The translations under genes and the position numbers were made by a program. From assembly GCA_964588165.1 (NCBI GenBank), contig CAZPMS010000006.1, positions 3,425 to 67,424 of the forward strand: a DNA stretch of 64,000 bases, read 5' to 3'. This document shows positions 1,609-64,000 of the stretch, piece by piece. Position 1 is the stretch's first letter, and each line of letters begins with the position of its first letter. The notes under the pieces were generated by a model. The model saw only the letters and a program-made list of their open reading frames with translations, was not told the origin of the DNA and did not search any database. Source of the stretch: an uncultured Gammaproteobacteria bacterium (GTDB lineage: Bacteria > Patescibacteriota > Patescibacteriia > UBA1558 > UBA10009).

Positions 1609-1695
1609 TTGTCATTTCGAGCTCCGTCGAGAAATCCCGTTATAAACAGTACGTTTTAATAACACGGGATCCCTCCGCTCCGGTCGGGATGATAA
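1609..1695. repeat. ~85-bp imperfect palindromic element (H1 family: tgtcatYYYgagc...gRRatcccgtta...taaYacgggatYcctc)
   Basis: Sequence tgtcatttcgagctccgtcgagaaatcccgttataaacagtacgttttaataacacgggatccctc; co-linear, about 80% identical with the 57421..57535 copy; internal inverted repeats. Confidence 0.6.
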
Positions 1696-1749
1696 AAATC
1701 AAATCAAAAAACGGGGAATAAAATCCCCGCTTTTTTAAATATCTTATAT

Positions 1750-2283
1750 CTATTTTTTATTGATAACGTTCTCTATGGCTGCCCATTGGCTATCGGCTCC
1801 TTTGGGCACCAAAATTACCACTTCATCGCCCTCGCCACCTTTAAAATAAGTAACCGAGGCCAAAATAACTTTAAAGGCTTTCTTTTCTGCTAAGGCACTA
1901 TATTCACCGGTGGCTTCATCCCTAATAAGCTTGCCTACTAAACGTTCTCTTTCTACCGGGCCGATTTGCTTGTAAATAAAATTACCGGCTTCATCTATAG
2001 TTAATTTTAAAATATCTCCCTCAACCAATTTTGATTTAGAAATATAGTTGGCAGGAACTGAATATTGCTTGCCATCCGGGCCGATCATTTTTTCACCATC
2101 AAACACGCCTTCTATTATTCTTTCATCGCCCTTTTTAGTTTCCTCGCCTACTACAGAAGCTTTTTTGGTAAAGTCAGTTTTATCTGTCGGGCCAATGCTG
2201 CCCCCTTCTAAAATAACTTTACATTTTTGCACTTGGATTTCAATATTATCCAAAATTTGTTTTAGTTCATTTACGTTTTTCAT
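1750..2283 (-). CDS. hypothetical protein (177 aa)
   Basis: ORF with typical local codon usage, lying downstream of the VirD4-like ATPase gene. No domain recognised. Confidence 0.5.
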   Translation of the reverse strand: MKNVNELKQILDNIEIQVQKCKVILEGGSIGPTDKTDFTKKASVVGEETKKGDERIIEGVFDGEKMIGPDGKQYSVPANYISKSKLVEGDILKLTIDEAGNFIYKQIGPVERERLVGKLIRDEATGEYSALAEKKAFKVILASVTYFKGGEGDEVVILVPKGADSQWAAIENVINKK

Positions 2284-2387
2284 ATTTATTTTTATTTAAT
2301 TTTATTTTGTTTTATATCTATTTTTGATAGTATTTTAAATATATCAGTAACAATAAAGCTGTCAATTAATATCTTGTTAATAAATTG

Positions 2388-2510
2388 TGAAAAAATAACA
2401 CCAATAACACACGATGCTCACGAATGGCTCACAGATAGCGCGAGGATATATGTGCGCTATTAGTGTAATATCAGTGAGCAACAGTATTATTAGTGATTAT
2501 TCTGTTACTT
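2388..2510. repeat. intergenic element R, copy 1 (second copy at 47975..48095)
   Basis: Shares aataacac(ac)gaatgctc.c plus a ~50-nt block gtgcgctattagtgtWWtatcMgtRagcaacagtRttattagtKatt with 47975..48095. Contains TTATTAGTG direct repeats. Confidence 0.55.
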
Positions 2511-8408: not shown

Positions 8409-8415
8409 GAAAAAC

Positions 8416-8444
8416 TTGACAAAATCAATAAATTATGCTAAATT
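8416..8444 (+). promoter_or_regulatory. sigma70-like promoter TTGACA-17-TAAATT
   Basis: ttgacaaaatcaataaattatgctaaatt; same architecture as 14238..14266. Confidence 0.5.
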
Positions 8445-25168: not shown

Positions 25169-25228
25169 AAATTTTAGCTACTAGATACAACCCCAGCCAA
25201 AGGCTGGTGAGCCTACGGCTCATACTCG

Positions 25229-29581: not shown

Positions 29582-30061
29582 TTATACTTTTAATTTTTCT
29601 TTCACTTTATTTACAACATCTTCTAATTTCCAGTCGCTTTTAATTAAATAATCATAGGCGCCACTTTCTAACATTTCAGCAATCTTTTCCCTATCATTTA
29701 AAACTGTTAATACTATTACCTGGACTTTACTACCCCATGTATCTTTTCTTAATTCCTTTAACATCTTTACTCCGTTCATCTTCGGCATAATAATATCTAA
29801 CAAGATAATATCAGGATGCTCTTTAAATGCAATTTCTAACCCTTCCTGGCCGTTTTTTGCCTGAAAAACCCCGAAGCCGTCAATCTTTGGCATAACCAGA
29901 TCTAAAAAAAGCAAATCAAACTTTTCACTTTTTAACAAATTTAATATTTCTTCACCATTATAAGCAACTTTTACATCAAAACCGGCACTTTTTAGTTTTA
30001 ATTCCAAAGCTTTAGCCATGGGCTTTTCATCTTCTCCTATTAAAATTTTCTTATTTGGCAT
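29582..30061 (-). CDS. stand-alone response-regulator receiver domain with internal duplication
   Basis: KILIGEDE acidic pocket; two tandem beta3-like segments (DLLFLDLVMPKIDG and DIILLDIIMPKMNG); VIVLT beta4; 159 aa versus a typical ~120. Confidence 0.7.
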   Translation of the reverse strand: MPNKKILIGEDEKPMAKALELKLKSAGFDVKVAYNGEEILNLLKSEKFDLLFLDLVMPKIDGFGVFQAKNGQEGLEIAFKEHPDIILLDIIMPKMNGVKMLKELRKDTWGSKVQVIVLTVLNDREKIAEMLESGAYDYLIKSDWKLEDVVNKVKEKLKV

Positions 30062-34103: not shown

Positions 34104-34179
<76 letters not shown>

Positions 34180-34273: not shown

Positions 34274-34318
34274 AATAATGTTTTTTTAAAAAAACATATT
34301 CTTATGGCATAACTTCTT

Positions 34319-34371: not shown

Positions 34372-34394
34372 ACGTTAGGCATTACTTTATTTAA

Positions 34395-43506: not shown

Positions 43507-43518
43507 ATTTTACCTCTA

Positions 43519-43548
43519 CGTCATTCCGAGCGAGGCTAAACCCTCGCC
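43519..43548. repeat. H1-family short element (gtcattccgagc + gcgaggctaaaccctcgcc hairpin)
   Basis: cgtcattccgagcgaggctaaaccctcgcc; the hairpin module is identical to one in the 52379..52560 composite element. Confidence 0.55.
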
Positions 43549-43632: not shown

Positions 43633-43875
43633 TTACTCAACTGATTGACGTTCAATATCTTCCTCATGACTGGTAACAGTATCGCCCCAATCTCCATCTG
43701 TTTGATCAAGAGTTGGCTTGGTTCCGGTAGCCCTGTCTTTTTTAGGGGGTTGTTGAGTATCTTCCAAAAAAGCAGCGGCAACCTCCGGATCATTTGGTAC
43801 ACCAGATTGATCTAATAAATCTTTAGCCTCTGGTGGTATCTCCCCTCCGTTTTCAAATGATTTTCCGTCAAACAT
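43633..43875 (-). CDS. hypothetical small acidic protein (80 aa)
   Basis: ORF only; low complexity. Confidence 0.3.
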   Translation of the reverse strand: MFDGKSFENGGEIPPEAKDLLDQSGVPNDPEVAAAFLEDTQQPPKKDRATGTKPTLDQTDGDWGDTVTSHEEDIERQSVE

Positions 43876-43921
43876 ATTTTTATTGGTTAATTAATTATTA
43901 TTTTTTTTGTATTCTACTACT

Positions 43922-43965
43922 ACGCCATTCCGAGCTTGTCGAGGAATCCCGTTATTCCGGAAAGA
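43922..43965. repeat. H1-family truncated element
   Basis: ccattccgagcttgtcgaggaatcccgttattccgg directly 3' of the GIY-YIG gene. Confidence 0.5.
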
Positions 43966-44236
43966 CGATTTTTAAATTCTTATTAACTCGCTTTATTAAA
44001 TCCAATTTTTTAAAACGACTCCATTTTTTTAACTGTTTTTCTCTATCAATCGCTTCAATAATACTTTCATAACTTTCAAAATAAACTAATTCATCAACAT
44101 TATATTTTTTAGTAAATCCTTTTAATTTTAATTGATGTTCATCTAATCTTCTAGCTAAATCATTGGTAACTCCTATATAAATCACTGTTCTCCTATGATT
44201 CATTAAAAAATAGACGTAAAATTCTTTTTGTAACAC
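43952..44236 (-). CDS. GIY-YIG nuclease family protein (94 aa)
   Basis: FYVYFLMNHRRTVIYIGVTNDLARRLDEH canonical GIY-YIG core. Confidence 0.75.
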   Translation of the reverse strand: MLQKEFYVYFLMNHRRTVIYIGVTNDLARRLDEHQLKLKGFTKKYNVDELVYFESYESIIEAIDREKQLKKWSRFKKLDLIKRVNKNLKIVFPE

Positions 44237-44309
44237 ATTTTAAACTTTCCTACCCTGATACATTTATTAACGGGATCTCTCCACCTTGGTCGAGATGACG
44301 TCTGAGAAA

Positions 44310-45599
44310 CTACGGTTTTAATCTGGTAATCATTCTAGGAAATGGAATTGTTTCCCTAACATGTTTAGTACCGCAGATCCAGCCAACCAGCCTTTCTAAG
44401 CCAACGCCGAATCCGGAATGAGGCACACTACCGTATTTTCTTAAATCCAAATACCATTGGAAATCTTTTATAGGCAATTTGTGTTCTTTAACTCTTTTGA
44501 GTAAAGTGTCATAATCATCCTCACGTTGACTGCCGCCGATAATTTCACCAAAACCTTCTGGGGCTATCATATCATCACAAAGTGCCAACTTGCCGGACTT
44601 ATCGCGCTTCATATAAAAAGCTTTAATGGCTGCCGGCCACTTATCTACAAACACCGGCACATCTGAATCTTTGGTTAATAAAGTCTCATCATCGCCGCCT
44701 AAATCCTCGTTATCTTTAATATCTGATCCAAGTTTTTGAAGTTTTTTTACAGCCTCTTTGTGTGTCATTCTTACAAATGGAGCTTTGATTTTTTTAAGCT
44801 TAGCAGTATCCCGTTCTAAAATCTCTAATTCCTTTTTATTTTCTGAAAGTACCTTTTTAACAATATATGAGACTAACTCTTCCTGGATCTTCATATTTTC
44901 TTCATGTTCAACAAAGGCTGCTTCTGCGTCCATCATCCAAAATTCTGTAAGATGCCTGCGGGTTTTGGATTTCTCGGCTCTAAACACTGGGCCAAAGTCA
45001 AAAACCTTGCCTAACGAAAATATGGCCGCTTCTATATATAACTGTCCTGATTGCGAAAGGTAAGCTTTGCCTAGGTCAAAATAATCCAGTTCAAATAAAG
45101 TTGTGGTGCCCTCACAGGCGTTGGGAGTTAAAATCGGCGAATCAATCTTAATATAGCCCTGGTTATTTAAAAATTCGTAAATTGAGTTTATGATGGTGTT
45201 CCTAACTTTTTGGATGGCCCACTGTTTGTTTGAACGTAGCCATAAATGACGATTATCCAATAAAAAATCCGGTCCATGCTCTTTTTTGGAAATCGGATAT
45301 TCTTCAGCCACCTGGACTAATTCAATATCGCTGACTTGGAGTTCATATTCTTCCTTTTTTGGATGTTTACTTATTTTTCCAGATAATATAGCTGACGATT
45401 CTTGAGTGATTTTCTCAACTTCCTTCCATACCTTGCCAGATACTTCCTTTTTATTAACAATGGCCTGAATAAAACCAGAACCGTCTCTAACCTGTAAAAA
45501 ATAAAGGCTTCCGGAAGATCGGAAGTTATAAATCCAGCCCTGAATTTTTGCTTCTTTACCCTCAAATTCAGAAGCTTTCGTAATTGTAATTTTTTCCAT
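44310..45599 (-). CDS. asnS: asparaginyl-tRNA synthetase
   Basis: 429 aa; N-terminal OB fold; class IIb motifs FRAEKSKTRRHLTEFWMMDAE and GFGVGLERL. Confidence 0.85.
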   Translation of the reverse strand: MEKITITKASEFEGKEAKIQGWIYNFRSSGSLYFLQVRDGSGFIQAIVNKKEVSGKVWKEVEKITQESSAILSGKISKHPKKEEYELQVSDIELVQVAEEYPISKKEHGPDFLLDNRHLWLRSNKQWAIQKVRNTIINSIYEFLNNQGYIKIDSPILTPNACEGTTTLFELDYFDLGKAYLSQSGQLYIEAAIFSLGKVFDFGPVFRAEKSKTRRHLTEFWMMDAEAAFVEHEENMKIQEELVSYIVKKVLSENKKELEILERDTAKLKKIKAPFVRMTHKEAVKKLQKLGSDIKDNEDLGGDDETLLTKDSDVPVFVDKWPAAIKAFYMKRDKSGKLALCDDMIAPEGFGEIIGGSQREDDYDTLLKRVKEHKLPIKDFQWYLDLRKYGSVPHSGFGVGLERLVGWICGTKHVRETIPFPRMITRLKP

Positions 45600-48645: not shown

Positions 48646-48703
48646 CTTCTCCTCCTAACAATAAGGGGATTATGCTGCGCCACCATTAGCACAGTCTGTT
48701 TAT

Positions 48704-48732
48704 AATGTAACATATTTTTATATTTATGTCAA
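48704..48732 (-). promoter_or_regulatory. sigma70-like promoter TTGACA-17-TACATT (minus strand)
   Basis: The reverse complement of 48727-48732 is TTGACA, the spacer is 17 nt, and the reverse complement of 48704-48709 is TACATT. Confidence 0.4.
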
Positions 48733-48811
48733 GTTTTACTGGATATCAAAAAACTCAATAAAATTGAGCCTTTTTTATGGCTGCCGGGGCTGGATTTTCA
48801 CCCCGCCGTAT

Positions 48812-48886: not shown

Positions 48887-48975
48887 ACTAATGTAGATAG
48901 ACGAAAATACTGCCCGCCAAAGGCGGGTCCGCCCTTGGCGGAAACTACCCGGCAAACTTGTTCGCCGAAGAGGCG

Positions 48976-49004
48976 AAATAAAAAACCCGCCGAACTTGGC
49001 GGGA
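48976..49004 (-). terminator. intrinsic terminator after the lipoprotein gene 49157..50077
   Basis: Minus strand cccgccaagttcggcggg followed by ttttttat. Confidence 0.6.
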
Positions 49005-51785: not shown

Positions 51786-52370
51786 TTATTTCGCCTCTTC
51801 AGCGAACATTTTAATGCCTTCTAAAATAACTTGCTGTTCTAATTTTTGAACCTTATTTCTTAATGACTCTACGGTTTCATTTTCAACAATTTTAACTTTT
51901 TTTTGAATAATGGTTGGGCCCCCGTCCAAATCTTCATTTACAAAATGCAAAGTGCAACCGCTTTCTTTTTCTTTATTAAATAAAACTTCTTTATGAACAT
52001 CCAAATCCATACCCGGATATTTAGGCAACAGCGAAGGATGAATGTTCATTATTCTATTTTTATACGGATTGATAATAACTGATGTCATTATCCGCATATA
52101 ACCAATTAGTACTATCAAATCAATTTTATGCTCCTGGCAAACCTTTAAGCATTCTGCATCAAATTTTTCTCTGTTTTTATTTTTTTGATTAATGTAGATG
52201 GTATTAATACCGGCTTTACGGGCACGTTCCAAAGCATAACAATCTTTTTTATTGGATAAAACAAACTTTAAATCAGCAAACTCAAGATTACCAGATTCCT
52301 TAGCGTCAATTATAGCTTGTAAATCTGTTCCTTTGGTTGAAGCAAATACTGCTAAATTGATTTTATTCAT
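51786..52370 (-). CDS. purN: phosphoribosylglycinamide formyltransferase
   Basis: 194 aa with a NIHPSLLPKYPG motif. Confidence 0.85.
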   Translation of the reverse strand: MNKINLAVFASTKGTDLQAIIDAKESGNLEFADLKFVLSNKKDCYALERARKAGINTIYINQKNKNREKFDAECLKVCQEHKIDLIVLIGYMRIMTSVIINPYKNRIMNIHPSLLPKYPGMDLDVHKEVLFNKEKESGCTLHFVNEDLDGGPTIIQKKVKIVENETVESLRNKVQKLEQQVILEGIKMFAEEAK

Positions 52371-52378: not shown

Positions 52379-52560
52379 CGACGAGGATAAATTCCTCGCC
52401 TGCGGAATATTATATTTATTAGCGAGGCTAAACCCTCGCCTGAACGATCTACTATCCCCAAAGTTGAGCAGAGGGTTTAGCCTCTGCATAAAATCCGTAG
52501 ACTATAAATGTAATAAATTACTTAACAAAATACCGTAACAGAGGAATTTATCCTCTGCAA
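52379..52560. repeat. ~180-bp composite nested palindrome in the purN-purD spacer
   Basis: gaggataaattcctcgcc...gcgaggctaaaccctcgcc...gcagagggtttagcctctgc...cagaggaatttatcctctgc; the outer and inner arms are mutually reverse-complementary. Confidence 0.7.
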
Positions 52561-52562: not shown

Positions 52563-53933
52563 TTAAGACTTTAATTCTTCCATCATCTTAATTCTTTTTT
52601 CTATCAATTCCTTAGTTCCAATATCCGGCCTATAGAAAACCGGACCGGTTATCTTTTTTATTTCTGCTTCTACCATTTTTTCTGCTTCATATAAATCTTC
52701 ATGAATACCCACTAATGCCACGGCCCTGGAACCGGCTAGATACAGGCCGTCTTCTCTTTGATCGACTGAGGCATAAAAAACTTTAACTTTAGACTGGTCT
52801 ACTTTAGAAACATCAATCTTTTTATCTTTGGTAGGATTTTCCGGATAACCTTCTGGCACTACATATTTACAGACTGTAGATTTTTTTTGAAGCTCTGGCT
52901 TTAATTGATCTAAATTACCGTTAATAATGGCTGAACATATTTCTAAAAAATCTGCTGATTTGTTGGCGGGAAAAGTTTTAGGCGGGAAAAGTGGCAACAC
53001 ATTCATGGCCTCTGGATCGCCTAACCTGGCATTATACTCAATCAGTTTGACTCCATTCTTAGTTAGCATAAAACCGCCATACAAAAATCCCTTATAGCTT
53101 TTACCAAACTTCTTTTTTAAAGCAACAGCCGTAGCTTCATTTACCCGACGGGCTTCTTTAATATCTTCTTCATCTAAAAATGGTAAAGAAAAATCTGCCA
53201 TAGAATAAGAACCCATGCCACCGGTATTAGGTCCTTTATCATCTACTAGAGCTCTTTTATTATCTTGAACCGCTGGCAGATGTAATAAATGTTCGCCATC
53301 ACAAAAACTCATCAAACTAAATTCCTGGCCAACCAATTTTTCTTCTATAACAACCTTATGACCTGATTCAAAATGTTTTTTTATAATCTCCAGGCCTTCG
53401 TTCATATTTTTAAAATGGTCGCCAGCCACAGTTACTCCTTTACCGCCAGCTAAACCGTCTTGTTTAATTACAAAATTTTCTTCCAAATGTTGAATCCAGT
53501 CTTCTACCCCTTCCATATCTTCACCCAGTCCTTCGCGAAGAGCTGGGTCAAAAACCATAAACTCGGGACTGCCATTTATTTTATAATCCTTAAATAATTC
53601 ACGAGTGAAGGCTTTACTGGTTTCTATCTGGGCTAAATCCTTGTCCGGGCCTACTGATGGAATGCCAACTTGGGATAAAACATCTACTACTCCTTGGCCT
53701 AAAGGAGCTTCTGGACCGATAAGGCAAAAATCAATAGATTTTTCGGTGGCATAACTAACTATAGAAGTATTATTTTTAAGCTCGCCAACTTTATAATCAG
53801 TTGCCAGCTCTTTAGTGCCTGGATTTGTGGATGAGGCAAATACATAAAGCTCTATTTCTTCTTTAGAAGATTTTAAAACAGAAGCCATGGCATGCTCTCT
53901 GGCACCAGAGCCAACTAACAAAACTTTTTTCAT
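52563..53933 (-). CDS. purD: phosphoribosylamine-glycine ligase
   Basis: 456 aa; ATP-grasp motifs; LIEYNARLGDPE. Confidence 0.9.
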   Translation of the reverse strand: MKKVLLVGSGAREHAMASVLKSSKEEIELYVFASSTNPGTKELATDYKVGELKNNTSIVSYATEKSIDFCLIGPEAPLGQGVVDVLSQVGIPSVGPDKDLAQIETSKAFTRELFKDYKINGSPEFMVFDPALREGLGEDMEGVEDWIQHLEENFVIKQDGLAGGKGVTVAGDHFKNMNEGLEIIKKHFESGHKVVIEEKLVGQEFSLMSFCDGEHLLHLPAVQDNKRALVDDKGPNTGGMGSYSMADFSLPFLDEEDIKEARRVNEATAVALKKKFGKSYKGFLYGGFMLTKNGVKLIEYNARLGDPEAMNVLPLFPPKTFPANKSADFLEICSAIINGNLDQLKPELQKKSTVCKYVVPEGYPENPTKDKKIDVSKVDQSKVKVFYASVDQREDGLYLAGSRAVALVGIHEDLYEAEKMVEAEIKKITGPVFYRPDIGTKELIEKRIKMMEELKS

Positions 53934-55456
53934 AATAATGAAGATTTACCGTGGTTATTATTAATATTTGATCTTTCTTGCTTTCTTCGTTTTTCTATTT
54001 CAACTAAAACTTCTTCGTTTATCTCTTCGGTTGGATATTTGCCATCAAAATAAGCGCAGTGCGGCCGGCTGAATTTTAGTTTTCCTTTCCTGGTTACTGC
54101 CTCTATTAAATCATCTAAATCTTGATAAATTAAAACATCTGCTCCAATACTTTGCTGTATTTCTTCTACACTGCGGTCGTAGGCAATATATTCTTCTCTG
54201 GTAGGCAAATCTATGCCATAAATATCCGGCCATCTAAGAGGCGGGCTGGCTGAGCCAAAATAAACTTTTTTAGCTCCATTCTCCCTCATTAACTTAACTA
54301 TATGCCTGGATACATTACCTCTAACAATACTATCATCTACTACCAATACGTTTTTATTTTTGATTTCTTGCTTAATGGCTGATAATTTATATTTGTTGGC
54401 TTTTTGCCTGGCTTCTTGGCCCGGCATTATAAATGTCCTGCCAATAAAAGGATTTTTGTAAATACCCTCTGTATATCTAACTCCTAATTCATTAGCGCAA
54501 GATAGGGCTGCTGTAGTAGCACTTTGCGGTGCCGGAATTACCACATCAATATCTAAACCGGGATGTTCTCTTTTAATTTTTTTAGCTAAGTTTTGGCCCA
54601 TTCTTAATCTGGATCTATATATGCTAACTCCGTTTAAGAATGAATCTACTCTGGCAAAATAAACATATTCAAAAATACAAGGCTTAAATTCTTTCTCTGT
54701 AACTCTTTTAGTTTTAACTTCTCCGTTTAAATCAATAAAAACAACCTCTCCTGGTTCTATGTCCCTATAAAAATCGTAGCCTAAAATTTGCAACATGGTA
54801 TTTTCGGAAGCAAAAATATGTTCAGTTTTAAAACTGGTTTTCCTCTGGCCCCAAATTAGCGGCCTGATTCCATGAGGATCTCTAAAAACAACCATTCCCT
54901 TATCGGCAATCATAGAAACTACAGAGTAAGCCCCTTTTACTCTTTTATGAACACTGCTCACTGCCTGGCAAACTGAATCAAAAAAATCACGATGGCAAAA
55001 CCGCGAAAGTTCATAAGCAAAAACATTTAAAATTACCTCCATATCACTGCTGGAATTTGTATGCCTTAGATCATTTTTAAACAACTCTTCCTTAAGCTGC
55101 CAATAGTTATAAACATTGCCATTATAGGCCATAGAAATTCCATAGGGAGAATTAACGTAAAATGGCTGGACTTCTTCTTTAGTAATAGCACCTACTGTAG
55201 GATACCTAACCTGTCCAATACCCATATTGCCTTTGAGATCAAAAATATCTTCTTGAGAGAAAACCTCTCTTACCAAGCCTAGCCCCCTTTTTTGATGAAA
55301 ACACTTATTATAGGTGGAAATGCCAGCACAATCCTGGCCCCGATGCTGCAAGGCCAATAAACTTTCATATAATTCTGTAGAAACTTGACCATTGCCAATT
55401 ATTCCGGCTATTCCGCACATAAATTTTATAATTAATGAACCATGATCAATAATCAA
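53930..55456 (-). CDS. purF: amidophosphoribosyltransferase
   Basis: Propeptide then CGIAGIIG N-terminal nucleophile; PRTase domain. Confidence 0.9.
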   Translation of the reverse strand: MIIDHGSLIIKFMCGIAGIIGNGQVSTELYESLLALQHRGQDCAGISTYNKCFHQKRGLGLVREVFSQEDIFDLKGNMGIGQVRYPTVGAITKEEVQPFYVNSPYGISMAYNGNVYNYWQLKEELFKNDLRHTNSSSDMEVILNVFAYELSRFCHRDFFDSVCQAVSSVHKRVKGAYSVVSMIADKGMVVFRDPHGIRPLIWGQRKTSFKTEHIFASENTMLQILGYDFYRDIEPGEVVFIDLNGEVKTKRVTEKEFKPCIFEYVYFARVDSFLNGVSIYRSRLRMGQNLAKKIKREHPGLDIDVVIPAPQSATTAALSCANELGVRYTEGIYKNPFIGRTFIMPGQEARQKANKYKLSAIKQEIKNKNVLVVDDSIVRGNVSRHIVKLMRENGAKKVYFGSASPPLRWPDIYGIDLPTREEYIAYDRSVEEIQQSIGADVLIYQDLDDLIEAVTRKGKLKFSRPHCAYFDGKYPTEEINEEVLVEIEKRRKQERSNINNNHGKSSLL

Positions 55457-55483: not shown

Positions 55484-56839
55484 TTATTTAATATACTTAT
55501 CTACCAGCTTACTGGCTAAACCGATATAATTTTCCGGGGTAAGCTTTAGCAGCTGATCCTTTGCCTGTTTGCTTATCTTTAAACTTCTAATGAATTTATG
55601 AAGCTCAATTTTATTTATAGTTTTTCCTCTGGTTAATTTTTTTAAAGCCTCATACGGTTTAGGATAGCCTTCTTTTCTTAAAACCACCTGGATTGGTTCG
55701 GCTAAAAGCTGCCATTGGTCTGATAATTCCTCTGCTACTTTTTGTTTATTTACTTCTAAACGTGATAAGCCTTTTAAAGTTGATTTTAAGGCCAATAAAC
55801 TATAGCCAATGGCCACGCCTTGGTTTCTCAATACTGTACTATCAGAAAGATCACGTTGCATCCTGGAAACTGCTAATTTTTCTGCTAAATGATTTAGAAT
55901 TGAGTTGGACAGCCCAAGATTACCTTCACTATTTTCAAAGTAAATTGGATTTACCTTATGGGGCATGGTTGATGAACCGACTTCTCCCTTAACTTTTTTC
56001 TGTTTGAATATGCCACGACTGATATAAAGCCAGATATCTTGATCTAAATCTTTGATAATATTATTAACTCTTATTAAATGATGGTAAGCTTCAGCTGATC
56101 CGTCATGAGGCTCTATTTGAGTTGTTAAAGGATTAAATTCAAGGCCGAATGATTCAATAAAATTTTTGCTAAAGCCAAGCCAGTCTACTTTTGGATAAGC
56201 AACCAAATGGGCACTCCAATTACCAACTGCTCCGGAAAATTTTCCTTTTAACGGCAACTGATTAATTTGATCATTGATTCTCTTATAAAAAACTGCTAAC
56301 TCCTTGCCAATGGTAGTTGGGCTGGCTGGCTGGCCATGGGTTAAAGCCAGTAGTGGAGTCCTGCGATGCTTGACTGCTGTTGACCTTAGTTCTTTCAATA
56401 ATTTATTTAAAGATTTTTTATAAGTAGCTAAGCCATCTTTTAACATTAAGGTGTAAGCCAGATTATTTATATCTTCTGAAGTTAAGCCGAAATGAATAAA
56501 TTCCTGATAGTCTTCCAATCTTTTAATCTTCTTAATCTTCTCCTTCAAATAATATTCAACCGACTTAACATCATGATTAGTTGTTTTTTCTATCTTCTTA
56601 ACTTTCTCAGCCTCCTTTATATCAAACTTTTCATAAATAGTTCTAAGTAGCACTCTTTCTTCGTCTGTGAATTCCCGCACTTCCGGAATTTTTGATTCGT
56701 TGGATAAGGCGATTAAATATTCCACTTCAACCTTAAGCCTGTACTTCATTAAAGCACTTTCAGAAAAAATTGAGTTTAGTTCTTTAACCTCATTATAATA
56801 ACGACCATCCAATGGAGAGATTGATGTTAAATTTGACAT
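55484..56839 (-). CDS. purB: adenylosuccinate lyase
   Basis: 451 aa; GSSTMPHKVNPIYFENSEGNLGLSN signature. Confidence 0.9.
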   Translation of the reverse strand: MSNLTSISPLDGRYYNEVKELNSIFSESALMKYRLKVEVEYLIALSNESKIPEVREFTDEERVLLRTIYEKFDIKEAEKVKKIEKTTNHDVKSVEYYLKEKIKKIKRLEDYQEFIHFGLTSEDINNLAYTLMLKDGLATYKKSLNKLLKELRSTAVKHRRTPLLALTHGQPASPTTIGKELAVFYKRINDQINQLPLKGKFSGAVGNWSAHLVAYPKVDWLGFSKNFIESFGLEFNPLTTQIEPHDGSAEAYHHLIRVNNIIKDLDQDIWLYISRGIFKQKKVKGEVGSSTMPHKVNPIYFENSEGNLGLSNSILNHLAEKLAVSRMQRDLSDSTVLRNQGVAIGYSLLALKSTLKGLSRLEVNKQKVAEELSDQWQLLAEPIQVVLRKEGYPKPYEALKKLTRGKTINKIELHKFIRSLKISKQAKDQLLKLTPENYIGLASKLVDKYIK

Positions 56840-56946: not shown

Positions 56947-57393
56947 TTAAAAGCTTTCTTTTATTTCCTTGATCTTATTTTTAACTTTATTTTGGATTGA
57001 CTCATCGGCCAAACCAAATATCCTAGCACAGGCAGCAGCCACATTTTTAGGATCCAAAACTGTAAGTACCGGCGTATCAGAAGGCATTTGCAAAGTTGAA
57101 TTAATGTTTACCATCATGTCTGATTTATCTTTAAAAGGCGGACAGGCAATAACCGGATGGACGGAATTGGCAGCCACTACTCCGGAAAGGCCGTTTGACC
57201 TACCGGCAATAGTTACGTAGACCAAATCTTTTTCCTTATTATTATTTTTTACAATTTCAAAAACCTTTTCCGGCACTTTATGGGCCGAAGCTATAATGGT
57301 TTCTGATTCTAAATCCCATTTCTTTAATTCCGATGATATTTTGTCAGCCCAATCTTTATCGGACGGACTGCCCATTATTAGAATGACTTTCAT
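56947..57393 (-). CDS. purE: 5-(carboxyamino)imidazole ribonucleotide mutase / PurE family
   Basis: 148 aa with a MGSPSD motif. Confidence 0.8.
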   Translation of the reverse strand: MKVILIMGSPSDKDWADKISSELKKWDLESETIIASAHKVPEKVFEIVKNNNKEKDLVYVTIAGRSNGLSGVVAANSVHPVIACPPFKDKSDMMVNINSTLQMPSDTPVLTVLDPKNVAAACARIFGLADESIQNKVKNKIKEIKESF

Positions 57394-57420
57394 AAATTTA
57401 TGAATAAAAAATGTTATGGA

Positions 57421-57535
57421 AAACTTTACTTCTATCTGTCATCCTGAGCTTGCCGAAGGATCCCGTTACTTTTAGTACGTGCTATATAATACGGGATTCC
57501 TCAATGTAACTCAGAATGACAAAAAGTAAAGTTTT
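57421..57535. repeat. H1-family ~110-bp palindromic element in the purE-purC spacer
   Basis: aaactttactt...tgtcatcctgagcttgccgaaggatcccgttacttttagtacgtgctatataatacgggattcctcaatgtaactcagaatgaca...aagtaaagttt. Confidence 0.7.
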
Positions 57536-57544
57536 ACCTGATTA

Positions 57545-58546
57545 TTATACAAGATAACCGCTTTTTTTCAAATTTTCTTCTATTCTATCCTTAATACTAC
57601 CCTCTTTGGCCTTAAACTGTTGGCCAGTTATCATTTCATACAGTTTTATATATCTGGATGAAAGTTCCACGACAAGCTCTTTAGGGGCTTCTGGCAGTTT
57701 TTCGTCATTATACGGATCACAGTGATCTTTAAACCACAATCTTAAAAATTCCTTATCAATATTATCAGGTTCTTTGCCATCTGATATTCTTTGTTGATAA
57801 GACTCTGCCAGCCAATACCTGGATGAATCCGGCGTATGGATTTCATCTATAAGCATAATATTACCTTCTTCATCCTTTCCGAATTCATATTTGGTATCAA
57901 CTAAAATTAAGCTGTTTTTGCTGGCTACTTCTTGGCCGAATTTAAAAAGTTCCATAGCTTTTTGGGAAATATAATCCCACTCTTGGGCAGTAGCAAAATG
58001 TTCCAACAAAATATCATTTTTGGAAATATTCCTGTCATGTTTTTCAAATTTAGTGCTGGGCGTAATTATTGGTTCCGTAAACTTTTGATTCTTCATCATA
58101 CCTTCTGGAAGTTTATTGCCGCAGAATTCCCTAACGCCTTTTTGATAATTAGTCCAAACTGCTGTATCAGTAGAACCAGTCATGTATCCCCTAACAATTA
58201 CTTCAAACGGAAACACTTTACATTTTTTACCAACTACTACGTTAGGATCAGGAATATCTAAAACAAAGTTGGGAATAATATTTTTAGTTTGCTTAAACCA
58301 CCAGGCGCTTGTTTGGTTTAGAACTTGGCCTTTAAACGGAATTGAGGCTAGCACTCTATCAAAAGCTGACTGCCTATCAGTTGTAATTAAAATTATTTTA
58401 TCTTCTGCTTGTCCTGAACCAGCTTTAGCTTGGTGCTGGATAAAATAGGTATCCCTTACTTTACCTGTCTTTTTTTCACCAAGGCCTTTAAAGTCAATCT
58501 CGGTTAAAACGTTATGAATGTTTTTTTCAATAATTTTTTTATCCAT
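57545..58546 (-). CDS. purC: SAICAR synthetase, long form
   Basis: 333 aa; SAICAR_synt motifs (GKVRDTY..., LILVDTKYEFG). Confidence 0.8.
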   Translation of the reverse strand: MDKKIIEKNIHNVLTEIDFKGLGEKKTGKVRDTYFIQHQAKAGSGQAEDKIILITTDRQSAFDRVLASIPFKGQVLNQTSAWWFKQTKNIIPNFVLDIPDPNVVVGKKCKVFPFEVIVRGYMTGSTDTAVWTNYQKGVREFCGNKLPEGMMKNQKFTEPIITPSTKFEKHDRNISKNDILLEHFATAQEWDYISQKAMELFKFGQEVASKNSLILVDTKYEFGKDEEGNIMLIDEIHTPDSSRYWLAESYQQRISDGKEPDNIDKEFLRLWFKDHCDPYNDEKLPEAPKELVVELSSRYIKLYEMITGQQFKAKEGSIKDRIEENLKKSGYLV

Positions 58547-61627: not shown

Positions 61628-61766
61628 GACAGATTTTAAATCTTTTTTATATGATGCGGACAGATTTTAAATCTGCCCCTTTCTTACCGCTAACCACTTT
61701 ACCTATTTCGAAAACTTTCTCACCTGATTTTTCCAATTCTGAACGAACAGATTTTAAATCTGCCCC
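61628..61766. repeat. three copies of a 16-21-nt near-palindromic repeat (g/a)acagattttaaatct(gcccc) at the purM 3' end
   Basis: Copies at 61628-61643 (just past the stop), 61659-61679 (last 9 codons) and 61747-61766 (in CDS); encodes ADLKSVR twice in the PurM C-terminus. Confidence 0.6.
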
Positions 61767-62684
61767 GACGATTAATACCATGCCAATGCCCATATTAAAA
61801 ACTCTATACATTTCTTCTTCTGCCACTTCTCCAACTTTTTGGATTAATTTAAAAATTGGCAGTATGTCCCAGGAATGTTTTTTTATCTCAACAGATAAAC
61901 GTTTTGGCAAAACTCTGGGAATATTATCTATAAATCCACCGCCAGTTATATGAGCAATACCGTTTATTTTTTCAACTAAAGGCAAAACTGACTTTACATA
62001 AGATTTATGTGGCATAGCCAACTCTTTGCCTAAACTAAAATTCAGTTCATCAAAATGGCTATCGGCCGTGTAATTATTTGCTTCAAAAAATATCTTTCTA
62101 ATTAAAGATGCGCCGTTAGTATGCATGCCGGATGATGCTAATCCCAGTAAAACATCACCTTCTTTAATTTTTTCACCGGTGATTATTTTATCTTTTTCTA
62201 CAATACCCGTAATACAGCCGGCTACATCATGTTCGCCTTTAACGTAGACTCCCGGCATTTCTGCAGTTTCTCCGCCAATTAAACTGACTCCGTTTTCCAT
62301 GCAGGCTTTGGCCATGCCTGTAACTATTTCTTCTATTTCTTTAGGATCAAGCTTATCGGCAGCTATGTAGTCTAAAAATGTTAAAGGTTTAGCTCCTTGG
62401 CACAAAATGTCATCACAGCAATGGTTAACAATATCCTCACCAACAGTTTCTAGGTTACCAACCATTTTGGCAACTTTAAGCTTAGTGCCTACGCCGTCTA
62501 TGCTTTGGACTAAAATTGGTTGGTTATAATCTTTTAATTGGCTGGCATCATACATGGCTCCAAAGGAACCTAAACCGGTAACCACATTGGCATCAAAAGT
62601 GGCCTTTACTTTATCTTTTATTTTATTTACTGCTTCATTACCGGCATCTATGTTAACACCAGAAGATTTATAACTAATTGACAT
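61647..62684 (-). CDS. purM: phosphoribosylformylglycinamidine cyclo-ligase (AIR synthetase)
   Basis: 345 aa; AIRS and AIRS_C domain motifs. Confidence 0.9.
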   Translation of the reverse strand: MSISYKSSGVNIDAGNEAVNKIKDKVKATFDANVVTGLGSFGAMYDASQLKDYNQPILVQSIDGVGTKLKVAKMVGNLETVGEDIVNHCCDDILCQGAKPLTFLDYIAADKLDPKEIEEIVTGMAKACMENGVSLIGGETAEMPGVYVKGEHDVAGCITGIVEKDKIITGEKIKEGDVLLGLASSGMHTNGASLIRKIFFEANNYTADSHFDELNFSLGKELAMPHKSYVKSVLPLVEKINGIAHITGGGFIDNIPRVLPKRLSVEIKKHSWDILPIFKLIQKVGEVAEEEMYRVFNMGIGMVLIVGADLKSVRSELEKSGEKVFEIGKVVSGKKGADLKSVRII

Positions 62685-62738: not shown

Positions 62739-62790
62739 GTAGGTGGGCATCAATATTAACGCCTGATGATTTATAATCTATTGACATATT
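62739..62790 (-). pseudogene. duplicated purM start region (~50 bp, ~80% identical to 62641..62692)
   Basis: atgtcaatagattataaatcatcaggcgttaatattgatgcc encodes MSIDYKSSGVNIDA versus the real PurM MSISYKSSGVNIDA; opens a 37-aa ORF ending before the true start. Confidence 0.6.
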
Positions 62791-62847
62791 TTATTTATTA
62801 TATAATATATATTAATTCGTACCTTTAAACCAACGAGGATTAAAAAA

Positions 62848-63345
62848 ATGCGTTTACGCAGCAGTGTTTTTCTAGCTTTATTACTGTTTTTGCTGTTTGG
62901 TTGTGGATTTATGTTTGAAGAACCGGAACAACCGACCTTTGAAGAAACCCTGAATCTAGTCCAACAATATACCTTTGAAGGGACGGTAGAAAAAACAGAA
63001 ATGCCCATATTTGATACCATTATCATATCTGCAAAGTCTGGAGGAAGAATATACACAATAGGGGTAATGAATCCCAACTGGATCTACTATAACCAAATGG
63101 ATCCTATTGCCCAGTTTGAAAACCCCTTTGATTATGAAAATGTTCATAATCTAAAAAATCAGTTAACAACTGGCTCCCGAATCCGTATTGCTATTAATCA
63201 AGCTCTACCAATTGAATGCAGTGTCCCTTTCAGACTAGTTTACGCAAATAATGATAGTATTCCTTATATCGACTATTTCCTCGAAGGTTTTACTATTCCA
63301 GCATATTTTTCTCCAACTGGTATTACTGAAATACCAATTCCTTGA
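62848..63345 (+). CDS. hypothetical lipoprotein (165 aa)
   Basis: Signal peptide with lipobox LLFGC; the only plus-strand ORF in the purine operon region. Confidence 0.5.
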   Translation: MRLRSSVFLALLLFLLFGCGFMFEEPEQPTFEETLNLVQQYTFEGTVEKTEMPIFDTIIISAKSGGRIYTIGVMNPNWIYYNQMDPIAQFENPFDYENVHNLKNQLTTGSRIRIAINQALPIECSVPFRLVYANNDSIPYIDYFLEGFTIPAYFSPTGITEIPIP

Positions 63346-63400
63346 ATAACTCATTTTCCAAACAGATAGCTTAGGCTGTCTGTTTTTCTTATTTAAAAAA

Positions 63401-64000
63401 CTAATTATTCATTTTATCCCTTAAACCGTTCAACCATTTATCTGCCATTTCTTGAACTGATAAATTGATAATTTCTTGTACCGACGCAATGTCATCCTGA
63501 GCGGAGCCAAAGGATTGCGTCGCTACCTTTAGCGACTGACCACCAGTCTTACCTATTTCAATAGCTTCAATATTATATTTCTCACAAATCTTCTGTACCG
63601 ACGCAACATCCTTAGTTTCTAAAACAAAGCCGCCTGTTTCGGAAAATAATTTCCCTGACGGATAAATTCCGTCAGCTGCGGTTTGGGTGAATTCTATTTC
63701 GCAGCCAATTTTATTTTTCCCATTCCCGCCAAAACACATTTCAGCAAGAGCAACTGCCAATCCACCGTCTGATATATCATGGCAAGCCAACAGTAATTCA
63801 TTATCAATCATATCTGTTACTGCATATATTTGATTTTCTGCCTCTTTAAAATCAGGCTTTGGCACATTGGCACCTAACTCGTTATGGATTTGATAGTAGA
63901 CCGAACCGCCCAGTTCATCTTTACGTTGGCCAATTAATAAAATTGACGAACCGGTTTTTTTAAATTCCATAGTAATGGCCTTATTATAATCCTGAATTCT
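63401..64000 (-). CDS. purL: phosphoribosylformylglycinamidine synthase subunit PurL, C-terminal part; continues beyond the window end
   Basis: The open frame continues upstream of the M at 63970 to the window edge. PurL C-terminal AIRS_C-like region. Contains an in-frame hairpin element (see repeat 63482..63536). Confidence 0.75.
   Translation of the reverse strand, partial: RIQDYNKAITMEFKKTGSSILLIGQRKDELGGSVYYQIHNELGANVPKPDFKEAENQIYAVTDMIDNELLLACHDISDGGLAVALAEMCFGGNGKNKIGCEIEFTQTAADGIYPSGKLFSETGGFVLETKDVASVQKICEKYNIEAIEIGKTGGQSLKVATQSFGSAQDDIASVQEIINLSVQEMADKWLNGLRDKMNN
63482..63536. repeat. H1-related palindromic element in frame within purL
   Basis: cgacgcaatGTCATCCTGAGCggagccaaaggattgcgtcg plus gtcgctacctttagcgac hairpins; encodes ...SFGSAQDDIASV... 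Confidence 0.55.

What the first reader, a model, noticed from the sequence alone, without database searches (positions are those of the whole stretch)
1609..63536. H1 family of ~30-110-bp imperfect palindromic elements (core GTCATYCYGAGC ... GGATCCCGTTA) in operon spacers and inside purL
Six related copies occur:
- 1609-1695;
- 43519-43548;
- 43922-43965;
- 52379-52560 (composite);
- 57421-57535;
- 63482-63536.

They share the core GTCATYCYGAGC followed by a GC-rich hairpin such as gcgaggctaaaccctcgcc or ...atcccgtta.../...taacgggat.... Most lie in short spacers between co-directional genes (purN/purD, purE/purC, upstream of aspS), where they would form stable RNA hairpins in polycistronic transcripts.

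One copy sits in frame inside purL. Relative to the Bacillus subtilis PurL C-terminus, which I recall from memory, it adds about 14 residues (ATQSFGSAQDDIAS). In-frame spread of palindromic elements is known from Rickettsia palindromic elements but not, to my knowledge, from a genome like this one.
Basis: partly seen in the sequence, partly recalled or inferred. Interest (0 to 1): 0.55.

Follow-up and report, generated by a model that had tools for sequence, protein, structure and literature searches.

The report
Hairpin repeats of a GIY-YIG nuclease
The short palindromic repeats are real and belong to a recently described family of DNA hairpin motifs that travel with a tiny single-strand-specific nuclease gene, which is itself present in the window; one copy has indeed been inserted in frame into the purL gene.

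Summary
A covariance model built only from motifs in other genomes finds seven ~33-nt units in the window. They lie at five loci. Each unit has the form YGTCAT, a 5-bp covarying stem, a GAGC..CGAR loop, then ATCCCGTTA.

The units match the NTS / "Ssn-related motif" (SRM) repeats of Chenal et al. 2025. Those repeats are single-stranded-DNA hairpins bound and cut by SsnA, a ~94-aa single-domain GIY-YIG nuclease. The window encodes such a protein at 43952-44236 (-). Inverted units flank it, heads outward, which is the published SRM-ssn-SRM layout.

In 74 of 80 loci from many phyla, homologues of this protein have the same GTCAT hairpins next to them.

The purL claim holds, but the insertion is 11 residues (33 nt, one unit), not 14. 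It is absent from all 17 nearest PurL homologues compared.

The "composite" at 52379-52560 is a different hairpin family. The copy at 43519-43548 carries only the 12-nt head.

A role as stable RNA hairpins is untested, and single units fold weakly.

Verdict: a new member of a known kind. The added point is that these motifs insert in frame into housekeeping genes, here and in other metagenomes.

The parts
1608..1642 (+). SRM-type unit, left half of a tail-to-tail doublet: ATTGTCATTTCGAGCTCCGTCGAGAAATCCCGTTA
   Evidence: R1 37.5 bits, E 2.2e-07; sequence read
1662..1696 (-). SRM-type unit, right half of the doublet. The head is degenerate (ATCAT). The two cores are about 31 nt apart.
   Evidence: R1 28.3 bits, E 4.8e-05
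43517..43548 (+). Partial or chimeric copy. It has an exact CGTCATTCCGAGC head, followed by an unrelated hairpin GCGAGGCTAAACCCTCGC. There is no closing stem. It lies 13 nt upstream of the aspS start codon.
   Evidence: Exact core hit; not detected by R1; hairpin shared with 52422-52439
43921..43954 (+). SRM-type unit flanking the 3' end of the GIY-YIG gene, on the opposite strand with its head outward. Its tail overlaps the TAA stop codon. The head is GCCAT.
   Evidence: R1 17.7 bits, E 0.025; translation across the gene end; sequence
43952..44236 (-). Gene for a 94-aa single-domain GIY-YIG nuclease (GTG start), the candidate Ssn-family partner of the repeats
   Evidence: Pfam GIY-YIG E 4.8e-17; 5317 homologues of ~90-120 aa; family-invariant residues retained; homologues flanked by GTCAT hairpins in 74 of 80 loci
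44268..44302 (-). SRM-type unit on the gene strand, ending 31 nt (44237-44267) upstream of the GIY-YIG start, head outward: GACGTCATCTCGACCAAGGTGGAGAGATCCCGTTA.
   Evidence: R1 28.6 bits, E 4.2e-05; strict-motif hit; sequence
57418..57538 (.). Tail-to-tail doublet in the purC-purE spacer, made of units 57435-57468(+) and 57489-57523(-). An extra outer inverted repeat (AAAACTTTACTT / AAGTAAAGTTTT) is present. The whole region folds as one 121-nt hairpin.
   Evidence: R1 E 1.4e-04 and 1.8e-03; ssDNA fold -21.7 kcal/mol, z -5.9; neighbours identified as SAICAR synthase and AIR carboxylase
63488..63522 (+). SRM-type unit inside purL, antisense to the gene. Read on the coding strand it encodes ..QSFGSAQDD.. 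and accounts for an 11-residue (33-nt) insertion.
   Evidence: R1 24.9 bits, E 3.7e-04; translation; 11-column gap in all 17 PurL homologues; AIRS_C domain
52379..52560 (.). NOT part of the SRM family. Four hairpins (GAGGATAAATTCCTC and GCGAGGCTAAACCCTCGC types, with inverted partners) form a ~180-nt palindrome in the purD-purN spacer.
   Evidence: No R1 hit; hairpin census; fold -27.2 kcal/mol, z -5.7; found only in this genome among 207 loci

Best explanation
**What it is.** The H1 elements are copies of an Ssn-related motif (SRM; NTS-like repeat). Each is an oriented ~33-nt module made of:
- a non-palindromic head, YGTCAT;
- a 5-bp stem (A-T, T-A and three variable pairs that covary between copies);
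- an 11-12-nt GAGC..CGAR loop;
- a tail, ATCCCGTTA.

**The partner protein.** It is the 94-aa single-domain GIY-YIG nuclease encoded at 43952-44236(-). This gene lies between two inverted units with their heads outward.

**Proposed action (inferred, not shown here).** This step rests on biochemistry done on Neisseria and Wolbachia homologues.
- When DNA is single-stranded (replication, repair, incoming DNA), the GTCAT-bearing strand folds into the hairpin.
- The nuclease binds the hairpin and nicks a few nucleotides 5' of it.
- The nuclease does not act on duplex DNA, on RNA or on the complementary strand.

**Doublets.** The two gene-less doublets (1608-1696 and 57418-57538) have the same heads-outward geometry as the gene cassette. 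They look like its ends without the gene, so they are analogous to a MITE or REPIN.

**How copies arise.** New copies arise by insertion. In essential genes only insertions that keep the frame and contain no stop codon survive. This explains the exact 33-nt, 11-codon unit in purL.

**Shown versus inferred.**
- Shown here: family identity, association with the gene, covariation of the stem, and insertion relative to orthologues.
- Inferred: cleavage by this particular protein and the way copies spread.
For: 1. The published NTS (CGTCATTCCCGCGMAVGCGGGAATCYRG) and the SRM-ssn-SRM architecture match the layout found at 44302-43921.
2. Model R1, built from 67 motifs of other genomes, recovers seven window units at E 2e-07 to 0.025. 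The next hit is at E 0.22.
3. Homologues of the window protein (46-63% identity) were collected from many phyla: Patescibacteria/Saccharibacteria, Cyanobacteriota, Bacteroidota, Proteobacteria, Clostridia and others.
   - They carry GTCAT-hairpin-ATC motifs in 74 of 80 loci.
   - There are 310 motif hits, against 4 in shuffled loci.
   - 143 hits lie within 150 nt of the gene.
   - 35 loci have both an upstream same-strand copy and a downstream opposite-strand copy.
   - 11 loci match the published SRM string within 300 nt of the gene. One (L063, Methylomonas) has the exact NTS consensus.
4. The stem covaries among the window copies (ATTTC/GAAAT, ATCTC/GAGAT, ATCCC/GGGAT, ATCCT/AGGAT, ATTCC/GGAAT). 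All 35 cells are paired, and 0 of 500 shuffles reach this.
5. Tail-to-tail doublets with 10-35-nt spacers are the dominant arrangement across the family: 88 convergent, 32 divergent and 27 tandem pairs.
6. There is evidence of insertion.
   - PurL has an 11-aa gap in 17 of 17 homologues.
   - The same motif lies in frame in a UvrA-like protein (L097), an ArgRS-like protein (L093, two sites) and an M50-protease-like protein (L086) from other metagenomes. The first two are insertions relative to solved structures.
Against: - The literal published degenerate SRM search string finds nothing in the window. That string also fails next to 69 of the 80 homologue loci, so it is narrow.
- I could not compare the protein directly with N. 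meningitidis SsnA or assign it to CDD cd10448 (one search returned no Neisseria protein). Family membership of the protein therefore rests on its size, its single domain, its flanking motifs, and homology to proteins flanked by canonical NTS.
- Predicted single-unit hairpins are weak.
- No biochemical activity, copy-number polymorphism or empty site was available. The other samples carrying this region are 99.9-100% identical.
- Only about 73 kb of this genome was examined (the window plus about 8.7 kb of L204). Genome-wide abundance is unknown.
Confidence: 0.82

Rival explanations
1. RNA-level elements. In this reading the copies function in polycistronic transcripts as stabilising hairpins, processing sites or attenuators. 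This is the first reader's interpretation and is analogous to REP effects on mRNA decay in E. coli.
For: - Several copies lie in short spacers between co-directional genes: purC/purE, upstream of aspS, and upstream of an 80-aa ORF.
- The 57418-57538 doublet would form a very stable hairpin (z -5.9).
- Stem covariation is compatible with either RNA or DNA structure.
Against: - Single units fold weakly.
- No unit is followed by a T-run, and none is called terminator-like.
- Units occur in both orientations relative to transcription.
- One unit lies inside a coding region, and two flank a nuclease gene.
- No Rfam family matches.
- The homologous protein does not bind RNA (PMC11893778).
- The same motif is tied to GIY-YIG genes across phyla, whatever the operon context.
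Confidence: 0.1
2. REP/REPIN-type elements, mobilised by a REP-associated tyrosine transposase (RAYT, an IS200/IS605-like Y1 enzyme) encoded elsewhere in the genome. On this reading the GIY-YIG gene is a bystander.
For: - The doublets are inverted pairs of short hairpins forming a longer hairpin, like REPINs.
- The hairpins carry an oriented 5' head, as REPs do.
Against: - The head is GTCAT, not GTAG.
- No Y1 transposase or any other transposase domain was found in any of the roughly 60 window ORFs scanned, nor in the extra 8.7 kb.
- The motif co-occurs with the GIY-YIG gene in 74 of 80 independent loci, in a fixed flanking geometry.
Confidence: 0.04
3. Chance similarity, or native sequence. 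On this reading the copies are unrelated GC-rich hairpins or terminators, and the extra PurL residues are an ordinary lineage-specific loop.
For: - With 2 mismatches allowed, the 12-mer is not enriched: 9 hits against 6.0 expected.
- The PurL loop varies in length among homologues.
Against: - Exact core: 3 hits against 0.01 expected.
- Tail: 5 hits against 0.19 expected.
- An independent model gives E down to 2e-07.
- The PurL insertion coincides with a model hit at E 3.7e-04. Its size equals one unit, and it is absent from 17 of 17 homologues.
Confidence: 0.02

Closest known systems
NTS / Ssn-related motifs (SRM) with SsnA nucleases (Chenal et al., Nat Commun 2025; PMC11893778)
   Same: - Oriented hairpin repeat with a conserved (C)GTCAT head and ..ATC tail.
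- Multi-copy and mostly intergenic.
- A ~94-aa single-domain GIY-YIG gene flanked on both sides by inverted copies.
- Homologues of the window protein are flanked elsewhere by the canonical NTS sequence.
   Different: - The hairpin is shorter: 5 bp plus a GAGC..CGAR internal loop, instead of the perfect ATTCCCGCG/CGCGGGAAT stem.
- There is a genome-specific CCCGTTA tail.
- The published degenerate search string does not match.
- The host is a low-GC uncultured bacterium, not a proteobacterial symbiont.
- One copy is in frame in an essential gene. NTS are reported inside genes in only 2% of cases, and in-frame insertion is not discussed in the sections and keyword searches of that paper I read.
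- Activity is untested here.
Neisseria dRS3 repeats (ATTCCC-N8-GGGAAT). That dRS3 repeats bound Neisseria intergenic mosaic elements is from my own knowledge.
   Same: About half of dRS3 copies are NTS. Both are short inverted repeats that bound intergenic mosaic segments.
   Different: There is no sequence identity beyond the ATTCC/GGAAT stem type. No mosaic RS elements are seen here.
REP / BIME / REPIN elements with RAYT transposases (IS200/IS605 relatives)
   Same: - Short oriented hairpins with a conserved 5' head.
- Inverted doublets form long hairpins.
- A single associated gene is flanked by copies.
- The hairpins are presumed to be recognised as single-stranded DNA.
   Different: - The head differs (GTCAT against GTAG).
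- The associated enzyme is a GIY-YIG nuclease, not a Y1 HUH transposase.
- Transposition has not been demonstrated for Ssn.
Rickettsia palindromic elements (RPE; in-frame insertion known from Ogata et al. 2000, cited from memory; RPEs are mentioned in PMC1779305 and PMC10969869)
   Same: Palindromic repeats that are tolerated as in-frame insertions within conserved protein-coding genes. The Ssn paper lists Rickettsia among genomes with more than 300 SRMs.
   Different: - RPEs are longer (about 100-150 bp).
- Sequence relationship to the units here was not tested.
- The host lineage is different.

Membership tests
SRM / NTS repeats (Chenal et al. 2025) | A 20-50-nt inverted repeat able to form a hairpin | tested here: met
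   The 5-bp stem is paired in 35 of 35 cells across seven units. Three of the five pairs show compensatory changes.
SRM / NTS repeats (Chenal et al. 2025) | A conserved non-palindromic 5' flank (C)GTCAT that gives the repeat an orientation | tested here: met
   GTCAT is exact in five units, and is GCCAT or ATCAT in two. Y precedes the head in seven of eight copies.
SRM / NTS repeats (Chenal et al. 2025) | Match to the published degenerate search string HGTCWYN(0-2)YYVSBRHN(0-5)WNVSBRGN(0-2)RNCYNB | tested here: not met
   There are 0 hits in the window. The string also matches near only 11 of the 80 homologue loci. It is an operational search tool for the CCCGCG-stem subtype rather than a definition.
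SRM / NTS repeats (Chenal et al. 2025) | Spatial association with an ssn gene, ideally flanking it on both sides | tested here: met
   Units at 44268-44302(-) and 43921-43954(+) bracket the GIY-YIG ORF 43952-44236(-).
SRM / NTS repeats (Chenal et al. 2025) | Many copies per genome, enriched over shuffled sequence | tested here: inconclusive
   There are seven units plus one partial copy in 64 kb, and none in a further 8.7 kb. Enrichment within the window is clear. The whole genome was not available.
SRM / NTS repeats (Chenal et al. 2025) | Strand-specific binding and cleavage as single-stranded DNA by the cognate nuclease | not testable with these tools
   This needs biochemistry.
Ssn nuclease family (CDD cd10448) | Single GIY-YIG domain of about 90-100 aa, with no extra DNA-binding domain | tested here: met
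   The protein is 94 aa. Pfam GIY-YIG covers residues 6-77 at E 4.8e-17 and there is no other domain.
Ssn nuclease family (CDD cd10448) | Homology to N. meningitidis SsnA (E < 1e-10), or assignment to cd10448 | tested here: inconclusive
   - Neither CDD nor the Nm SsnA sequence was available.
- A search seeded with a betaproteobacterial homologue listed no Neisseria protein.
- Indirect support: the protein is 47-58% identical to proteins flanked by the canonical NTS or by the published SRM string (L063, L078, L027, L026).
Ssn nuclease family (CDD cd10448) | Conserved catalytic residues of the GIY-YIG fold (two Tyr, Arg, His, Glu, Asn) | tested here: met
   Y9, Y20, R30, H34, E66 and N85 are invariant across 18 homologues, including the window protein.
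REP/REPIN with RAYT | A GTAG head, and an associated Y1 (IS200-like) transposase gene | tested here: not met
   The head is GTCAT. No transposase domain was found in the window ORFs. The rest of the genome was not examined.
Intrinsic terminators | A GC-rich stem-loop followed by a T-run | tested here: not met
   None of the units is among the terminator-like sites between 43400 and 58000.
Any Rfam RNA family | A score at or above the family's gathering threshold | tested here: not met
   Only five tRNAs reach threshold in the window.
Rickettsia palindromic elements | In-frame insertion of a palindromic repeat into conserved genes | tested here: met
   PurL has an 11-aa insertion. This is a likeness of behaviour only. 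Sequence homology to RPE consensus sequences was not tested.

The most novel reading that the evidence does not exclude
SRM units are (or recently were) mobile single-stranded-DNA hairpin elements, spread by the small GIY-YIG Ssn nuclease. On this reading the gene-bearing cassette is the autonomous form and the heads-outward doublets are its MITE-like derivatives. These elements repeatedly insert in frame into essential housekeeping genes (purL here; uvrA-, argS- and M50-protease-like genes in other metagenomes) and add hairpin-encoded loops to proteins, as RPEs do in Rickettsia. That would make Ssn/SRM a new class of nuclease-driven mobile element rather than only a host system that modulates transformation.
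Probability: 0.3. Interest if true: 0.7.

Novelty: new member of a known kind. Interest (0 to 1): 0.35.

Why it matters
**What this locus adds.** The repeat family and its nuclease were described in 2025, mainly from Neisseria and other Proteobacteria.
- It places a clear SRM-ssn-SRM cassette and its gene-less doublets in a low-GC uncultured bacterium.
- The subtype escapes the published search string, so published counts of SRM-bearing genomes are probably underestimates.
- Units of this family have been inserted in frame into conserved enzymes, here and in other metagenomes. This is direct comparative evidence that the repeats arise by insertion, a point the original paper left as a hypothesis.

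**Practical consequences.**
- These motifs create spurious short ORFs and odd peptide insertions (..SFxxxQDD.., ..RHSEQSEESR..) in annotation.
- They appear to break assemblies. One related contig ends 55 nt from the purL copy.

Tried and rejected
- **Published SRM string.** 0 hits in the window. Rejected as a membership criterion because it also misses most motifs next to homologues.
- **Supplementary tables of the Ssn paper.** Not held.
- **Direct link to Neisseria SsnA.** The third protein search, seeded with a Burkholderiales homologue, listed no Neisseria protein. PDB has no Ssn structure, only weak UPF0213 hits. NCBIfam has no specific model.
- **First attempt at locus retrieval.** An 18-sequence alignment had no usable conserved stretch. 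A 6-sequence alignment worked.
- **Empty-site search.** Contigs from other samples carrying this region (L205, L206, L207) are 99.9-100% identical to the window, so no polymorphism is visible. L206 ends 55 nt short of the purL unit.
- **Left-flank extension.** The ORF is not on record. The exact 94-aa GIY-YIG with its GTG start is also not on record.
- **Taxon.** No source names any of 12 window proteins. Named homologues of the nuclease and of PurL include Patescibacteria, but the taxon is not established.
- **Other readings tested and not supported.** Terminator, known RNA family, RAYT-mobilised REP.
- **MAFFT alignment of mixed-length motifs (A5).** It misplaced gaps in the 3' stem, so the model was built from the 35-nt subset only (A6).
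- **The 52379-52560 composite as a diverged SRM.** Rejected: it has no head, no R1 hit and a different stem/loop type.
Full report
**Context**

The window is about 35% G+C. GC skew on the + strand is uniformly negative, and nearly all genes lie on the - strand. It comes from a 167-kb metagenomic scaffold that is also present in several other samples.

Genes next to the reported elements were identified with Pfam and NCBIfam:

| Coordinates (- strand) | Gene or product |
|---|---|
| 42124-43506 | aspS |
| 43633-43875 | 80-aa ORF with no family |
| 43952-44236 | 94-aa GIY-YIG protein |
| 44310-45599 | asnS |
| 51786-52370 | purN |
| 52563-53933 | purD |
| 53930-55456 | purF |
| 55484-56839 | purB |
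| 56947-57393 | purE |
| 57545-58546 | purC |
| 61647-62684 | purM |
| 63401 to beyond 64000 | 3' part of purL |

**Checking the observation**

I read all six reported places.
- The exact core GTCATYCYGAGC occurs 3 times, against 0.01 expected.
- With two mismatches allowed it is not enriched: 9 hits against 6 expected. The 12-mer alone is therefore a poor detector.
- The tail GRRATCCCGT occurs 5 times, against 0.19 expected.

Writing the copies out shows a common ~33-nt unit: YGTCAT, three variable bases, GAGC-N4-5-CGAR, the complement of the three variable bases, then ATCCCGTTA. The A-T, T-A and three variable positions form a 5-bp stem that differs between copies but stays complementary. 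The observed stems are ATTTC/GAAAT, ATCTC/GAGAT, ATCCC/GGGAT, ATCCT/AGGAT and ATTCC/GGAAT. On the alignment of the seven units, all 35 cells are paired. Three of the five pairs show changes on both sides, and none of 500 shuffles reaches the observed values. The alignment was fitted to the model, so this is supportive rather than independent.

**Identifying the family**

The unit at 43921-43954 abuts the stop codon of the 94-aa GIY-YIG ORF. A literature search led to Chenal et al. 2025 (PMC11893778). That paper reports the following:
- The Neisseria repeat NTS, CGTCATTCCCGCGMAVGCGGGAATCYRG, and related "Ssn-related motifs" (SRM) are hairpins with a conserved, orienting 5' flank.
- SsnA, a 94-aa single-domain GIY-YIG protein (CDD cd10448), binds them specifically and cuts just upstream of them.
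- This happens only on single-stranded DNA. Duplex DNA, RNA and the complementary strand are not cut.
- The ssn gene is typically flanked by SRMs on both sides.
- The authors note the likeness to an insertion sequence and to REP/RAYT systems, but they do not show mobility.

**Testing the link**

The literal published degenerate string gives no hit in the window. I therefore tested the association directly.

The window protein has more than 5,000 homologues of similar size. It keeps all family-invariant residues: Y9, Y20, G22, R30, H34, E54, E66 and N85.

I retrieved 80 genomic loci encoding homologues, 46-63% identical, from many phyla. I scanned them for GTCAT-NNN-(3-22 nt)-complement(NNN)-ATC.
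- 74 of 80 loci carry the motif.
- There are 310 hits in 704 kb, against 4 after shuffling.
- 143 hits lie within 150 nt of the gene.
- 49 loci have a copy upstream on the gene strand, 47 have a copy downstream on the opposite strand, and 35 have both.
- Eleven loci match the published string within 300 nt of the gene. One (L063) carries the exact NTS consensus.

The published string is therefore a narrow detector of one subtype, and the window protein belongs to the same gene-plus-motif system.

It ends 31 nt (44237-44267) upstream of the GIY-YIG start, measured from the edge of the 44268-44302 model hit. The gene thus sits in a canonical heads-outward cassette running from 44302 to 43921.

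**An independent model**

I built covariance model R1 from 67 same-length motifs taken only from those other genomes. Searching the window with filters off returns seven units:

| Unit | E-value |
|---|---|
| 1608-1642(+) | 2.2e-07 |
| 44268-44302(-) | 4.2e-05 |
| 1662-1696(-) | 4.8e-05 |
| 57435-57468(+) | 1.4e-04 |
| 63488-63522(+) | 3.7e-04 |
| 57489-57523(-) | 1.8e-03 |
| 43921-43954(+) | 0.025 |

- The next hit, at E 0.22, is AT-rich noise.
- A fragment at 33434-33451(-) (E 1.2) resembles a decayed copy.
- R1 does not detect 43519-43548. That copy has the exact head, but the head is followed by the hairpin GCGAGGCTAAACCCTCGC and there is no closing stem.
- R1 also detects nothing in 52379-52560.

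The composite at 52379-52560 consists of four hairpins of two other types: GAGGATAAATTCCTC and GCGAGGCTAAACCCTCGC, plus their inverted partners. They are arranged as a ~180-nt palindrome. Its only link to H1 is the hairpin module it shares with 43530-43547. Among 207 fetched loci this module occurs only in copies of this same genome.

**Anatomy of the doublets**

Both doublets are tail-to-tail pairs with their heads outward, and the cores are 31-33 nt apart. This is the same geometry as the units that bracket the nuclease gene. Across 160 loci from other genomes it is the predominant arrangement of neighbouring units: 88 convergent, 32 divergent and 27 tandem pairs, with spacers mostly of 10-35 nt.

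The purC-purE doublet has an additional outer inverted repeat. It folds as a 121-nt hairpin (-21.7 kcal/mol, z -5.9). Single units fold weakly, and the 1605-1700 doublet is only marginal at z -1.6.

**The purL copy**

The frame is open to the end of the window. I aligned the fragment with the 17 nearest PurL homologues, the two closest being 60% and 59% identical by BLASTP. The window has an 11-column insertion that all of them lack: LKV-ATQSFGSAQDD-IASVQEI against LQIKDNG-REI. The Thermus PurL structure does not extend through it either. Eleven codons equal 33 nt, the size of one unit, and the insertion coincides with the R1 hit at 63488-63522.

The proposed refutation, that orthologues share the residues, does not occur.

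The exact junctions cannot be set at 60% identity. A 9-nt inverted repeat (CGACGCAAT / ATTGCGTCG) brackets the core in this copy.

**In-frame copies in other organisms**

Only 3 of the 80 loci held carry an Ssn gene within the fetched stretch. Three of them carry the motif in frame inside housekeeping-type genes:

| Locus | Gene type | In-frame peptide | Check against solved structures |
|---|---|---|---|
| L097 | UvrA-like, 1005 aa | TGSFANTQDD | Lies in a stretch about 30 residues longer than in Geobacillus UvrA; a second 19-residue insertion lies further on |
| L093 | ArgRS-like | RHSEQSEESR, at two sites | Both sites fall where the alignment to solved ArgRS breaks, with about 28 and 23 extra residues |
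| L086 | M50-protease-like | A doublet, including TGSFTDVQDD | No structure or Pfam comparison was run; identified only from the translated sequence |

In-frame insertion therefore looks like a recurrent property of this repeat family.

**A second in-frame palindrome in this window**

PurD carries the 27-nt palindrome GACCCAGCTCTTCGCGAAGGACTGGGT (53523-53561 region), which encodes DPALREGLG.
- It is absent from solved PurD structures.
- It is absent from the 13 closest library representatives.
- It is 90% complementary to an intergenic palindrome beside tRNA-Trp at 32089-32127.
- It has no GTCAT head and is a different family.

**Mechanism**

Shown here:
- family identity;
- association of the motif with the gene;
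- covariation of the stem;
- insertion relative to orthologues.

Inferred from the published biochemistry of homologues:
- the GTCAT strand folds when the DNA is single-stranded;
- the 94-aa nuclease binds it and nicks just 5' of the motif.

Inferred from anatomy:
- the cassette and the doublets are related as an autonomous element and a MITE/REPIN-like derivative;
- copies arise by insertion, and purifying selection leaves only frame-preserving, stop-free units inside essential genes.

**Rivals**
- *RNA-level role.* It cannot be excluded for the very stable purC-purE doublet. It has no positive support: there are no T-runs, no Rfam match and weak single-unit folds, and units occur in both orientations.
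- *REP/RAYT.* The head differs, and no transposase domain occurs in the ORFs scanned.
- *Chance.* Excluded.

**Limits**
- I could not compare the protein with Neisseria SsnA or with cd10448.
- The taxon is unresolved.
- No near relative lacking an insertion was found, because the other samples are 99.9-100% identical.
- Only about 73 kb of the genome was seen. The additional 8.7 kb of L204 has no further unit.

**Verdict**

This is a real repeat family that is already known in kind (the NTS/SRM-Ssn system). The window holds a new member and subtype together with its nuclease gene. The added point of interest is that units are inserted in frame into purL here and into other housekeeping genes elsewhere.

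Noticed in passing
window 53523-53561 (inside purD, 52563-53933 -): A 27-nt palindrome, GACCCAGCTCTTCGCGAAGGACTGGGT, encodes DPALREGLG. It is a 9-residue in-frame insertion, absent from solved PurD structures and from the 13 closest library representatives. It is 90% complementary to an intergenic palindrome at 32089-32127 beside tRNA-Trp. It has no GTCAT head, so it is a second, different palindromic family inserted in frame.
   Followed up: yes
window 52379-52560 and 43530-43547: A separate hairpin family: GCGAGGCTAAACCCTCGC (three copies counting the inverted one) and GAGGATAAATTCCTC (two copies). In the purD-purN spacer they form a ~180-nt palindrome (z -5.7). Among 207 fetched loci the GAGGATAAATTCCTC hairpin is found only in copies of this genome. 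Its partner protein, if any, is unknown.
   Followed up: partly
window 31990-34400 (- strand): A tRNA island with partial tRNA duplications.
- The 5' half of tRNA-Tyr is repeated at about 33925-33990. The repeat is interrupted by GC hairpins and followed by a second 94-aa GIY-YIG ORF (33601-33885), whose 3' end runs into the intact tRNA-Tyr (33554-33638).
- The 3' half of tRNA-Thr(GGT) is duplicated (33998-34040 against 34104-34146).
- Part of tRNA-Trp is duplicated (32069-32097 against 32163-32191).
- A third GIY-YIG ORF (32259-32483, 74 aa) lies just upstream of tRNA-Trp.

This suggests other small GIY-YIG cassettes inserted at tRNA genes.
   Followed up: partly
window about 33385-33420 and 34225-34280 (- strand): Two copies of an odd tRNA-like 5' fragment, GCCGTTGTAGCTCA(G/A)TGGTACCCCGCATAACTCCT.., followed by a hairpin. 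Neither ARAGORN nor Rfam calls them.
   Followed up: no
window 63655-63675 (inside purL): A perfect 8-bp-stem hairpin, CTGACGGATAAATTCCGTCAG, encodes ADGIYPSG. It shares GGATAAATTCC with the composite hairpins at 52382 and 52541. PurL is 2-6 residues longer here than its homologues. It could be a third in-frame element or chance.
   Followed up: partly
window 25193-25222, 34325-34339, 48913-48942, 48986-49003: Short GC-rich hairpins of the type CC(A/C)GCC-AAA-GGC(T/G)GG occur, often in tandem pairs, in intergenic regions near tRNA genes. Some are called terminator-like.
   Followed up: no
window 29582-30061 (-): The response-regulator receiver protein has an internal partial duplication of the receiver domain (..EILNLLKSEKFDLLFLDLVMPKIDGF.. 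/ ..GLEIAFKEHPDIILLDIIMPKMNGV..). Pfam matches it in two stretches.
   Followed up: partly
L097 1780-4794 (-), L093 11616-13493 (+), L086 1815-2972 (+): In other metagenome contigs, SRM units or doublets lie in frame in a UvrA-like, an ArgRS-like (two sites) and an M50-protease-like protein. The UvrA-like protein also has a second, 19-residue insertion, SSQFNGEAGSFRSTRVEAG.
   Followed up: partly
L206 (ERZ23499057 scaffold_49509), end corresponding to window 63433: A 1.9-kb contig of the same organism from another sample ends 55 nt from the purL SRM unit. This is consistent with assemblies breaking at this repeat.
   Followed up: no
window 1463-1493, 8410-8440, 48700-48737: A shared promoter-like sequence, AAAAACTTGACAAAAT..N..TATGCTA / TAAATTATGCTAAATT, appears upstream of several genes. 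It shows up as long inverted-repeat pairs between distant sites (I5 and I7).
   Followed up: no
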